Assembly: GCF_009914755.1 (NCBI RefSeq)
Contig: NC_060925.1
Length of the DNA: 64,000 bases
Reading direction: 5' to 3' (one strand)
Origin: the human T2T-CHM13v2.0 reference genome, Homo sapiens
The notes under the pieces were generated by a model that was not told the DNA's origin, did not search any database, and was given only the letters and a program-made list of their open reading frames with translations. How positions within the stretch are numbered: the stretch's first letter is position 1; every line of letters starts with the position of its first letter. The position numbers were made by a program, and so were the translations under genes. Below are positions 27,470 through 27,592 of this stretch, piece after piece.

Positions 27470-27592
27470 TCACAGGACACAGCAGGTGCAGGACACAGGC
27501 CCGTGCTGCTGCAGCTGCTGCTGGAGCTGCTCCTTCTCCATCATCAGCGCCTTCATCTTCTCTTCCAGCTTGCCCAGCTCCACCAGCCACCT
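27470..27592 (-). CDS. SLFNL1: Schlafen-like protein 1, last coding exon (aa 368-407): coiled coil plus C-terminal CTCCVL
   Basis: cccctcag| acceptor; [43 protein letters not shown] at 27472-27470. Confidence 0.93.

What the first reader, a model, noticed from the sequence alone, without database searches (positions are those of the whole stretch)
27470..27490. SLFNL1 ends in a CaaX prenylation box with adjacent palmitoylatable cysteines (S-C-T-C-C-V-L-stop)
Seen: the spliced CDS ends [11 protein letters not shown]. Established: a C-terminal CaaL is the geranylgeranyltransferase-I signal; CCVL has the same CCaX form as RalA (CCIL) and RalB (CCLL), and nearby upstream Cys residues are typical S-acylation sites. 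Inference: SLFNL1 is lipid-anchored to a membrane, which I do not know to be described for any Schlafen-family protein. This exon is missing from the supplied ORF track in the correct frame, so the motif appears only after manual splicing.
Basis: partly seen in the sequence, partly recalled or inferred. Interest (0 to 1): 0.8.

Follow-up and report, generated by a model that had tools for sequence, protein, structure and literature searches.

The report
Conserved lipid-anchor signal ending SLFNL1
Human SLFNL1, an uncharacterised testis-enriched Schlafen-like protein, ends in a prenylation (CaaX) signal that is kept from amphioxus to mammals, so it is very probably a lipid-modified, membrane-directed protein, which appears not to have been described.

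Summary
The last coding exon (27470-27592, minus strand) ends ...[15 protein letters not shown], and the annotated exons splice into a clean 407-aa CDS.

Of 120 mammalian SLFNL1 proteins, all 101 that contain the final exon end in CXXX with Cys at -4. The other 19 are models that stop at earlier exon boundaries.

Among 145 unnamed representatives of divergent relatives, 66 end in CXXX. Cys sits at -4 in 61 of the 140 non-mammal-type tails, against 0-5 at every other terminal position. Named amphioxus and gar proteins carry the signal. Acanthomorph teleosts have lost it, 0 of 20.

Non-mammal tails pair a single CaaX with a basic stretch. Mammals replaced that stretch with extra cysteines (C402, C405). 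A Ser three residues before the prenyl-Cys is kept throughout.

Best reading: geranylgeranylation of C404 plus S-acylation, resembling FBXL2 and the CCaX proteins. This is a new member of a known kind.

No paper in the library links SLFNL1 to prenylation. Supplementary tables could not be read, and biochemical proof is lacking.

The parts
27473..27484 (-). CaaX box C404-C405-V406-L407; C404 is the predicted geranylgeranyl acceptor and C405 is the a1 residue (CCaX type)
   Evidence: Searches give the sequence. Cys at -4 in 101/101, a1 Cys in 98/101, a2 V/I/L in 101/101 and X L/M in 101/101 mammalian tails.
27470..27472 (-). TGA stop codon that fixes the Cys at exactly -4
27488..27490 (-). C402, upstream cysteine and candidate S-acylation site (second signal)
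   Evidence: Cys at -6 in 94/101 mammalian tails. It is absent from non-mammal-type tails, which average 0.05 extra Cys.
27491..27493 (-). S401, a Ser three residues before the prenyl-Cys that is conserved across the whole family
   Evidence: Ser at this position in 98/101 mammalian tails and 53/61 non-mammal-type CaaX tails, against a 7.5% Ser background.
27473..27505 (-). Unstructured 11-residue tail H397-L407 that follows the helix
   Evidence: AF2 model of the gorilla orthologue shows no secondary structure after residue 395, with pLDDT about 51. Human numbering is gorilla +1 after residue 147.
27506..27592 (-). Leucine-zipper-like helix, exon-4 part (human 368-396)
   Evidence: Helix 357-395 in the model. 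Heptad Leu at gorilla 375/382/389 in 53/52/53 of 53 sequences. Sub-threshold bZIP_1 matches in 47/53.
28598..28627 (-). Start of the same helix, exon-3 part (human 358-367)
27470..27592 (-). Last coding exon of SLFNL1, including the stop
   Evidence: There is an AG acceptor upstream.
28598..28741 (-). Coding exon 3 (human 320-367); the end of the SLFN_AlbA_2 domain lies at 28643-28741
28999..29520 (-). Coding exon 2 (human 146-319); the SLFN_AlbA_2 domain starts at about 29295
   Evidence: Pfam PF04326, E = 2e-16 on this exon alone. The domain spans 220-351 of the gorilla protein.
31590..32024 (-). Coding exon 1 (human 1-145); the RRM-like beta-alpha-beta-beta-alpha-beta domain lies at 31617-31892
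   Evidence: No Pfam hit on this exon. The AF2 model folds residues 45-136 with pLDDT 80-90. Weak Foldseek matches to RRMs. RRM_1 found in 3/41 non-mammal relatives.

Best explanation
The C-terminus of SLFNL1 is a functional CaaX prenylation signal. In human, cytosolic GGTase-I is predicted to attach a C20 geranylgeranyl group to C404 of C404-C405-V406-L407 (X = Leu). The prenylated tail then meets membrane-bound acyltransferases and is S-acylated. One route is on C405 with the aaX retained, as in the CCaX route of Cdc42-palm. The other is on C402 after RCE1/ICMT processing, as in the H-Ras and FBXL2 route. The result is a stable but reversible membrane anchor at the end of a leucine-zipper-like helix, which places the RRM-like and Schlafen (AlbA_2) domains on a membrane surface. 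In non-mammalian relatives the same job is done by a single CaaX plus a Lys/Arg-rich stretch. Mammals swapped that basic second signal for cysteines. Shown here: the motif, its exact register, its conservation and positional specificity, the lineage-specific second signal, and an unstructured tail in a model. Inferred: every lipid attachment, the enzymes involved, and the target membrane.
For: The sequence and clean 407-aa CDS are established. Of 120 mammalian hits to exon 2, 101 end in CXXX: CCVL 90, CCIL 5, CCIM 2, CCLL 1, CWVL 1, CSVM 1, CSVL 1. Cys at -4 is present in 101/101. All 101 reach the profile end, whereas the other 19 stop at profile positions 317-366, which are exon boundaries, so none contains the last exon. 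The three mammals whose a1 is not Cys keep the -4 Cys, which fixes the register. A profile search of 1.84 billion representatives gave 1352 hits, of which the top 150 were listed. Of the 145 new unnamed ones, 66 end in CXXX. That is 53 of the 66 whose match reaches the coiled-coil tail, versus 13 of the other 79. a2 is I/V/L in 63/66, and X is L 29, M 19, S 6, I 5, F 4, V 2, K 1. As a positional control, Cys is at -4 in 61 of 140 non-mammal-type tails versus 0-5 at each of the other 14 terminal positions, with an overall Cys frequency of 1.8%. Named carriers outside mammals are four Branchiostoma proteins ending CVIL or CVVL and two gars ending CSLM. For the second signal, non-mammal-type tails average 3.0 K/R and 0.05 extra Cys, while mammalian tails average 1.42 K/R and 1.94 extra Cys. 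a1 is free to vary in non-mammals (T, V, I, S, A, R, N and others) but is Cys in 98/101 mammals, which argues for selection on C405 itself. Ten of the 61 non-mammal-type tails are exactly sequences reported as fully or nearly fully geranylgeranylated by human GGTase-I in yeast: CVIL, CTIL, CIIL, CVIM, CTII (PMC11152559 passages). On enzymology, GGTase-I targets CaaL/I/M, and RALA CCIL, RALB CCLL and PDE6B CCIL are listed as C20 (PMC7674641 table). Precedents are Cdc42-palm CCIF, prenylated on the first Cys and palmitoylated on the second (PMC9868626 passages), and FBXL2, geranylgeranylated at C420 with prenylation-dependent palmitoylation at C417/C419 (PMC9988375 passages). The model shows the tail unstructured after a long helix.
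Against: No experiment is available. I found no labelling, mass-spectrometry or localisation data for SLFNL1. CCVL itself does not occur in the main text of the humanized-yeast CaaX study (0 occurrences). Acanthomorph teleost orthologues have lost the signal: 0 of 20 end in CXXX. Thirteen of the 66 representatives that reach the tail also lack it. Of those 13, 3 are teleosts named and one is a model one residue short. The anchor is therefore dispensable in at least one lineage. Slfnl1 knockout mice have normal testis histology, sperm morphology and litter size (PMC7401030 passages), so whatever the anchor serves is not essential for fertility. The flexible segment after the helix is short (11 residues) and the model is of modest quality (mean pLDDT 62). 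Alignments A1 and A2 were built from sequences I chose because they had the CaaX, so the invariant Cys column reported is circular and carries no weight.
Confidence: 0.75

Rival explanations
1. The prenyl group serves mainly as a sorting handle and not as a static anchor. The conserved S-x-[V/I]-C(prenyl) tail would be a high-affinity PDE6delta cargo signal, released by Arl3, that delivers SLFNL1-family proteins to cilia or sperm flagella. This overlaps with the best explanation, because prenylation is still required.
For: For INPP5E and GRK1, PDE6delta affinity and exclusive ciliary sorting depend on Ser at -3 and a hydrophobic residue at -1 relative to the farnesyl-Cys (PMC5512577 abstract and passages). 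In 61 non-mammal-type CaaX tails, Ser is at -3 in 53, V/I at -1 in 39, and both in 37, against backgrounds of 7.5% Ser and 7% V+I. Ser at -3 is kept in 98/101 mammals. Geranylgeranylated FBXL2 binds PDE6delta. SLFNL1 is testis-enriched. A Tetrahymena protein listed with SLFNL1 as its human homologue was absent from cilia of FAP256-knockout cells (PMC10522465 table passage).
Against: In mammals the -1 residue is Thr in 83 and Ser in 10 of 101, not hydrophobic. The published rule was established for farnesylated peptides. Palmitoylation reduced PDE6delta binding of FBXL2. The Ser could equally be a phosphorylation site within a basic stretch. No localisation data exist, and the knockout mice have normal sperm.
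Confidence: 0.2
2. The cysteine cluster is S-acylated without prior prenylation, so the membrane anchor is palmitate only.
For: For Cdc42-palm, a second population palmitoylated on both cysteines has been proposed, because CCIF is a non-canonical box (PMC9868626 passage). Mammalian SLFNL1 has three cysteines within six residues.
Against: Palmitoylation does not require a fixed distance from the C-terminus. Yet the Cys is at exactly -4 in 101/101 mammals and 61/140 divergent tails, versus 0-5 elsewhere, with aliphatic a2 and X restricted to L/M/S/I/F/V. Non-mammal tails have a single Cys in canonical CaaX form, some identical to validated GGTase-I substrates.
Confidence: 0.05
3. The terminal cysteines are structural, forming a metal site or an inter-chain disulfide that caps the coiled coil, and no lipid is attached.
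For: The Cys-x-Cys-Cys cluster directly follows a heptad-repeat helix.
Against: Most relatives have only one Cys in the tail, which cannot form a metal site. The cytosol is reducing. The constraints on a2 and X and on the distance to the stop codon have no structural rationale.
Confidence: 0.03
4. The motif is a chance or neutral feature with no function.
For: CXXX termini are common: 1207 human Swiss-Prot proteins are quoted in PMC11152559. The mouse knockout has no fertility phenotype. Teleosts lost the motif.
Against: The motif is conserved in register across mammals, gar, amphioxus and dozens of clusters below 50% identity, while the residues just upstream vary.
Confidence: 0.02

Closest known systems
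FBXL2 (F-box protein; C417-x-C419-C420-V-I-L)
   Same: It is a non-GTPase with a Cys-x-Cys-Cys cluster at the extreme C-terminus and X = Leu. C420 is geranylgeranylated, and C417/C419 are palmitoylated only after prenylation. The lipids set its ER versus plasma-membrane distribution (PMC9988375 passages).
   Different: The register is shifted by one. In FBXL2 the third Cys is the CaaX Cys and both acyl sites lie upstream. In SLFNL1 the second Cys (C404) is at -4 and the third (C405) is the a1 residue. The domains are unrelated. FBXL2 lipidation is shown experimentally, whereas SLFNL1 lipidation is not.
CCaX proteins: brain Cdc42 (CCIF), RalA (CCIL), RalB (CCLL), PDE6B (CCIL)
   Same: They share the C-C-aliphatic-X form. 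The X = Leu members are listed as C20-modified (PMC7674641 table). In Cdc42-palm the first Cys is prenylated and the second palmitoylated, which bypasses aaX removal (PMC9868626 passages).
   Different: Those proteins are small GTPases or a phosphodiesterase subunit. SLFNL1 adds a further upstream Cys (C402). CCVL itself was not found as a tested sequence.
Polybasic-plus-CaaX proteins (K-Ras4B type)
   Same: Non-mammalian SLFNL1 relatives combine one CaaX Cys with a Lys/Arg-rich stretch containing a Ser: mean 3.0 K/R in the ten preceding residues, and K at -6 in 30/66. The rule that a polybasic domain or palmitoylation is needed in addition to CaaX is the title of Hancock 1990, which I saw only as a reference-list entry in PMC5874806.
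   Different: The K-Ras4B tail sequence itself is recalled and was not checked here. The mammalian proteins have left this class.
Prenylated RNA-directed innate-immunity proteins: OAS1 p46 and ZAP-L
   Same: These are RNA-binding or RNA-processing proteins whose CaaX directs them to endomembranes. OAS1 p46 is among the CaaL/I/M proteins tested in PMC11152559. ZAP-L farnesylation and the 'prenylated dsRNA sensor' were seen only as titles in reference lists.
   Different: There is no homology to SLFNL1. Any RNA-directed function of SLFNL1 is itself unproven.
C. elegans SLFL-3/SLFL-4 (PUCH piRNA-processing nuclease subunits)
   Same: These are germline proteins with a single Schlafen-like fold, tethered to a membrane (mitochondria) through their C-terminus. 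The tether matters for function (PMC10567574 passages).
   Different: Their tether is a transmembrane helix, not a lipid. Orthology with SLFNL1 is not claimed.

Membership tests
CaaX substrates of GGTase-I / FTase | Cys exactly four residues from the C-terminus | tested here: met
   C404 is followed by C-V-L and then the stop codon.
CaaX substrates of GGTase-I / FTase | Aliphatic a2, and X = L/I/M for GGTase-I | tested here: met
   V406 and L407. The rule is taken from PMC11152559 passages. Across mammals a2 is V/I/L in 101/101 and X is L 98, M 3.
CaaX substrates of GGTase-I / FTase | The motif is kept in register in orthologues | tested here: met
   101/101 mammals with the last exon. 61/140 divergent tails have Cys at -4 versus 0-5 at other positions. 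Amphioxus and gar carry it. The exception is acanthomorph teleosts, 0/20.
CaaX substrates of GGTase-I / FTase | An accessible, flexible segment upstream of the box | tested here: inconclusive
   The AF2 model shows no secondary structure after residue 395 and pLDDT of about 51 in the last block. That is compatible with flexibility, but low confidence is not proof. No prenylation predictor was available.
CaaX substrates of GGTase-I / FTase | Covalent isoprenoid on the Cys | not testable with these tools
   This needs metabolic labelling or mass spectrometry.
CCaX dual-lipid proteins (Cdc42-palm type) | A second Cys at the a1 position | tested here: met
   C405. It is Cys in 98/101 mammals, although a1 varies freely in non-mammals.
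CCaX dual-lipid proteins (Cdc42-palm type) | Palmitate on the a1 Cys with the aaX retained | not testable with these tools
   This needs acyl-exchange assays and C-terminal peptide mass spectrometry.
Prenyl plus upstream-palmitoyl proteins (H-Ras, FBXL2 type) | Cys within a few residues upstream of the prenyl-Cys | tested here: met
   C402, two residues upstream. It is Cys in 94/101 mammals.
High-affinity PDE6delta cargo (INPP5E, GRK1) | Ser at -3 relative to the prenyl-Cys | tested here: met
   S401. Ser in 98/101 mammals and 53/61 non-mammal-type tails. The rule is from PMC5512577.
High-affinity PDE6delta cargo (INPP5E, GRK1) | Hydrophobic residue (I/V/M) at -1 relative to the prenyl-Cys | tested here: not met
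   Human has T403. In mammals the residue is T 83, S 10, I 5, G 2, A 1 of 101. The feature is met in 39/61 non-mammal-type tails.
Schlafen / SLFN_AlbA_2 (PF04326) | Pfam domain match above the gathering score | tested here: met
   61 bits against a cutoff of 25.3 on exon 2 alone. The domain is found in 53/53 A1 members and 40/41 A2 members. Foldseek's best matches are Schlafen cores, but only at E >= 1e-3.

The most novel reading that the evidence does not exclude
SLFNL1-family proteins are prenyl-dependent, PDE6delta/Arl3-sorted cargo that place an RRM-plus-Schlafen RNA-processing module on ciliary or flagellar (or other specialised germ-cell) membranes. The family-wide S-x-[V/I]-C-a-a-X tail would be an ancient ciliary sorting code of the INPP5E/GRK1 type. 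Mammals would have retuned it by swapping the basic patch for palmitoylatable cysteines, and spiny-rayed fishes would have discarded it together with the N-terminal domain.
Probability: 0.15. Interest if true: 0.8.

Novelty: new member of a known kind. Interest (0 to 1): 0.55.

Why it matters
SLFNL1 is described as ancestral in jawed vertebrates and functionally uncharacterised (PMC12492265 passages; PMC10567574 passage).

A CaaX signal kept in register from amphioxus to human is the first concrete, cheaply testable mechanistic handle on it. It predicts where the protein acts (on a membrane) and which enzymes and drugs affect it (GGTase-I, statins, zDHHC acyltransferases). It also identifies which point mutants separate its functions (C404S, C402S, C405S).

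It would be the first lipid-anchored member of the Schlafen fold, and a parallel to the TM-tethered PUCH subunits of the worm germline.

The replacement of a basic second signal by cysteines at the base of mammals is a tidy natural example of the interchangeability of second signals that was first shown for Ras.

The limits are that prenylation candidates are numerous, and that the mouse knockout has no fertility phenotype.

Tried and rejected
1. Self-association of the C-terminal helix. I ran complex prediction with two copies of gorilla residues 345-406. The verdict was 'no answer' (score 0.09, mark 0.32), which I use neither for nor against. Dimerisation rests only on the heptad pattern.

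2. Naming the unnamed representatives. A profile search with A2 was swamped by chance word matches: 12 hits from the 8000 candidates scored. The two atlas calls gave only 'commonest Chordata' for neighbouring clusters. The taxa of most CaaX-bearing representatives, including the whole amphioxus-side group of the tree, therefore remain unknown.

3. The tree is the quick version. The careful search did not finish in 288 s. It is midpoint-rooted, has SH-aLRT support only, and several long branches were flagged. I use it only to see groupings.

4. My first test of whether the 19 mammalian models without CXXX lack the last exon used a regex that was too narrow. I replaced it with HMM coordinates.

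5. The invariant Cys columns in A1 and A2 are discarded as evidence, because I chose those sequences for having the motif.

6. Foldseek against the PDB gave no match below E = 1e-3. The Schlafen and RRM assignments from it are leads only.

7. The literature search for CCVL, CCaX, CCIL and CCLL as whole words returned mostly unrelated acronyms.

8. Supplementary tables and earlier scan findings were closed.

9. A Rab-type CC/CXC double geranylgeranylation was considered and rejected, because the protein ends in CCVL and not in CC or CXC. A three-residue CaX reading with C405 as acceptor was also rejected. The mammals with CWVL, CSVM and CSVL, and all single-Cys relatives, keep the Cys at -4 and not at -3.
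Full report
**Observation.**
Reading 27400-27660 on the minus strand and translating the annotated last coding part 27470-27592 gives a 40-residue peptide ending [11 protein letters not shown], followed by TGA. The interval in the finding (27470-27490) covers C402, T403, C404, C405, V406, L407 and the stop. The Ser in the title (S401) is at 27491-27493.

Joining the four annotated coding parts in a script gives 1224 nt and 407 codons with one terminal stop. There is a GT after each of the three internal donor boundaries and an AG before each of the three acceptor boundaries. 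All junctions are phase 0, and cysteines sit at 65, 188, 196, 248, 273, 365, 402, 404 and 405. A stop-to-stop frame 27470..27832(-) carries the exon.

**Is it more than chance? Mammals.**
A C-terminal CXXX alone is common. One paper quotes 1207 human Swiss-Prot proteins with it (PMC11152559 passages). The test is conservation.

Exon 2 (174 aa) searched against the 5.8-billion-protein collection with lengths 'longer' found 223 proteins at E <= 0.001. The best 120 were listed. Those with names are mammalian SLFNL1, plus one marmoset SCMH1-SLFNL1 fusion model.

- 101 of the 120 end in CXXX: CCVL 90, CCIL 5, CCIM 2 (both marsupials), CCLL 1, CWVL 1, CSVM 1, CSVL 1.
- Cys is at -4 in 101/101, at -3 in 98/101 and at -6 in 94/101.
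- a2 is V/I/L in 101/101, X is L 98 and M 3, and Ser is at -7 in 98/101.
- HMM coordinates show that all 101 reach the last profile position.
- The other 19 stop at profile positions 317/318, 339 or 365/366. These are essentially the exon 2/3 and 3/4 junctions, followed by unrelated residues. None of the 19 contains the final exon.

So every mammalian sequence that has this exon has the box. The three species whose a1 is not Cys keep the Cys at -4, which fixes C404 as the CaaX cysteine.

**Beyond mammals.**
I built a profile from 53 full-length mammalian sequences (A1) and searched it against 1.84 billion cluster representatives at 50% identity. It gave 1352 hits at E <= 0.001, with the top 150 listed. 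145 of these were new, and the library gives no names.

- 66 of the 145 end in CXXX. That is 53 of the 66 whose match extends into the coiled-coil tail (profile position >= 380) and 13 of the other 79.
- a2 is I/V/L in 63/66. X is L 29, M 19, S 6, I 5, F 4, V 2, K 1.
- Five of the 66 are mammal-type (CC[VIL][LM]), and one (CNNK) is probably chance.

As a positional control on the 140 non-mammal-type tails, Cys is at -4 in 61 and at 0-5 in each of the other 14 terminal positions, with an overall Cys frequency of 1.8%.

Names came from two further searches. Four Branchiostoma proteins annotated schlafen-like protein 1 or SLFNL1 end in CVIL or CVVL, and two gar proteins end in CSLM.

Ten of the 61 non-mammal-type tails are exactly sequences reported as completely or nearly completely geranylgeranylated by human GGTase-I in a yeast reporter: CVIL, CTIL, CIIL, CVIM, CTII.

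The invariant Cys columns printed for alignments A1 and A2 carry no weight, because I selected those sequences for having the motif.

**Evidence against universality.**
A quick tree showed one 12-member clade without any CXXX (quick method, midpoint root, several long branches). A named search with one member identified it as acanthomorph teleosts: Perca, Etheostoma, Siniperca, Centropristis, Thunnus, Scomber, Menidia, Pampus, Scatophagus, Toxotes, Gasterosteus, Spinachia, Scortum, Notolabrus, Kryptolebias and Cyclopterus.

0 of 20 end in CXXX. Their homology to the profile starts only at positions 110-225, so they also lack the N-terminal domain. Several share a different Ser/Pro-rich tail. 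This looks like a real lineage-specific loss.

Thirteen of the 66 representatives that reach the tail lack CXXX. Of those 13, 3 are teleosts named and one is a model one residue short of the mammalian ending.

Slfnl1 knockout mice have normal testis histology, sperm morphology and litter size (PMC7401030 passages).

**Anatomy around the motif.**
Pfam finds SLFN_AlbA_2 on exon 2 alone (E = 2e-16). It also finds it in 53/53 A1 members and 40/41 A2 members.

An AlphaFold2 model of the gorilla orthologue has mean pLDDT 62 and pTM 0.50. Gorilla is 398 identities over 406 aligned residues to human, and human numbering is gorilla +1 after residue 147. The model shows:

- a confident beta-alpha-beta-beta-alpha-beta domain at residues 45-136 (pLDDT 80-90);
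- a moderately confident Schlafen core;
- a helix at 357-395;
- no secondary structure in the last 11 residues.

Foldseek against the PDB gave nothing below E = 1e-3. The best rows were Schlafen cores (SLFN12, 5, 11, 14, 13) and RRM or S6-like domains. RRM_1 reaches significance in 3/41 non-mammal relatives. The atlas lists sister clusters labelled RRM/Schlafen AlbA_2, with RRM_1 in 83% and 90% of members.

The helix has a leucine-zipper heptad. Leu at gorilla 375, 382 and 389 occurs in 53, 52 and 53 of 53 sequences, and Leu, Val/Leu and Leu occupy 372, 379 and 393. There are sub-threshold bZIP_1 matches in 47/53.

**A change of second signal.**
In the ten residues before the box, the two groups differ:

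| Group | Mean K/R | Mean extra Cys (a1 included) |
|---|---|---|
| Non-mammal-type tails | 3.0 | 0.05 |
| Mammalian tails | 1.42 | 1.94 |

In the non-mammal-type tails, K is at -6 in 30/66. The ancestral form is therefore a single CaaX plus a basic patch, and mammals (placentals and marsupials) carry CaaX plus cysteines.

a1 varies freely in non-mammals (T 12, V 12, I 10, S 7, A 6, R 5, N 4 and others) but is Cys in 98/101 mammals. If -CVL were always clipped off, there would be little reason to conserve C405. I infer that at least part of the protein keeps the aaX and is acylated on C405.

**Mechanism proposed.**
The steps below are inferred from established enzymology and were not shown here.

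1. GGTase-I targets CaaL/I/M (PMC11152559 passages). RALA CCIL, RALB CCLL and PDE6B CCIL are tabulated as C20, and CDC42 CCIF also as C20 (PMC7674641 table passage). C404 is therefore predicted to be geranylgeranylated. Marsupial CCIM and shrew CSVM could take farnesyl.
2. S-acylation would then follow one of two routes. One is the CCaX route described for Cdc42-palm: prenyl on the first Cys, palmitate on the second, and bypass of aaX removal (PMC9868626 passages). The other is the upstream-Cys route described for FBXL2: C420 geranylgeranyl, with C417/C419 palmitoylated only after prenylation, setting ER versus plasma-membrane distribution (PMC9988375 passages).
3. The zipper-like helix may pair two anchors. 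This rests on the heptad pattern alone.

**A further lead.**
Ser three residues before the prenyl-Cys is kept through the change of second signal: 98/101 mammals and 53/61 non-mammal-type tails. In non-mammal-type tails the residue just before the Cys is V/I in 39/61. Both features occur together in 37/61, against backgrounds of 7.5% Ser and 7% V+I in the 20 residues upstream.

This is the pattern reported to give INPP5E and GRK1 nanomolar affinity for PDE6delta, Arl3-specific release and ciliary sorting. Swapping those two residues reversed the affinities (PMC5512577 abstract and passages).

Two circumstantial points fit with it:

- SLFNL1 is testis-enriched.
- A Tetrahymena protein listed with SLFNL1 as its human homologue was absent from cilia of FAP256-knockout cells (PMC10522465, one table passage).

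Against it:

- Mammals mostly have Thr at -1.
- The rule was set with farnesylated peptides.
- The Ser could instead be a phosphosite.

**What is known.**
- 'SLFNL1' occurs in 61 papers of the library (30 listed).
- 'SLFNL1' together with 'prenyl*' gives 0 papers.
- 'SLFNL1' with 'palmitoyl*' gives 3 papers, which I judged unrelated from titles and abstract openings only.
- The old alias FLJ23878 gives 0 papers.
- 'schlafen' with 'CaaX' gives 2 papers, judged from titles only.
- 'schlafen' with 'prenyl*' gives 16 papers. I opened the two with the most Schlafen content. In both, the only 'prenyl' occurrence is a reference-list title about ZAP-L or OAS1. The other 14 were not opened.

A recent evolutionary study calls SLFNL1 ancestral in jawed vertebrates, sited between CTPS1 and SCMH1, and not yet characterised. 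Its passages containing 'SLFNL1' do not mention the C-terminus (PMC12492265).

The PUCH paper notes SLFNL1 as a testis-enriched single-SLFN protein of unclear function. It also shows that worm SLFL-3/4 are tethered to mitochondria by a C-terminal TM helix that matters for piRNA levels (PMC10567574 passages). Membrane tethering of a Schlafen fold therefore has a precedent, but lipid anchoring does not, as far as these searches reach.

These searches cover main text only. About 1.7 million PMC articles are not indexed. Whether UniProt or a predictor database already flags the site I cannot check. From recall, I know of no such annotation.

**Verdict.**
It is extended by three findings:

- the deep conservation from amphioxus to mammals;
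- the basic-to-cysteine switch of the second signal;
- the conserved Ser.

It is qualified by the teleost loss, the null fertility phenotype and the absence of any biochemical data. It is a new member of a known kind (CaaX plus second signal), in a family where this has not been described.

Noticed in passing
window 31617-31892 (-), human residues 45-136: The N-terminal region has no Pfam hit, but the AF2 model folds it as a confident beta-alpha-beta-beta-alpha-beta domain. Foldseek gives weak RRM and S6-like matches. RRM_1 is significant in 3/41 non-mammal relatives. Atlas sister clusters are labelled RRM/Schlafen. SLFNL1 is probably RRM-like + Schlafen core + zipper + CaaX.
   Followed up: partly
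window 27506-27592 and 28598-28627 (-), human 358-396: This is a leucine-zipper heptad. Leu at gorilla 375/382/389 occurs in 53/52/53 of 53 sequences, with hydrophobic residues at 372/379/393. Sub-threshold bZIP_1 matches occur in 47/53. Self-association is not established.
   Followed up: partly
P0156-P0158, P0182, P0191, P0201, P0215, P0220, P0224, P0276-P0286 (named acanthomorph teleost SLFNL1): 0 of 20 have a CaaX. Their homology starts only at profile positions 110-225, so the N-terminal domain is missing too. Several share a different Ser/Pro-rich tail. The gene seems remodelled at both ends in this lineage, while gars keep the CaaX.
   Followed up: partly
P0004, P0011, P0025, P0030, P0040 and 14 other mammalian models: Nineteen of the 120 mammalian models end their homology at profile positions 317/318, 339 or 365/366, essentially the exon junctions, and continue into unrelated residues. 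One (P0004, marmoset, 825 aa) is annotated as SCMH1 and carries Pfam domains of the neighbouring gene plus AlbA_2. These are read-through, intron-retention or fused gene models.
   Followed up: partly
P0122 and P0127 (unnamed): This pair groups with mammals in the quick tree and ends in CCVL, but its upstream Cys is at -8 and not -6, after a long Ser/Gln repeat. It may mark an early stage of the basic-to-cysteine switch. The taxon is unknown.
   Followed up: no
window 25954-29765 (+), from the supplied annotation: Exon 1 of the lncRNA SLFNL1-AS1 lies antisense over the last three coding exons of SLFNL1, including the CaaX codons. I did not examine whether this constrains the DNA sequence.
   Followed up: no
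PMC10522465, table passage: A 273-aa Tetrahymena 'divergent AAA domain protein' (I7LVP2) is listed with SLFNL1 as its human homologue (30.77% identity). It was detected in wild-type cilia but was absent in FAP256A/B-knockout cilia. Its sequence and C-terminus were not examined here.
   Followed up: no
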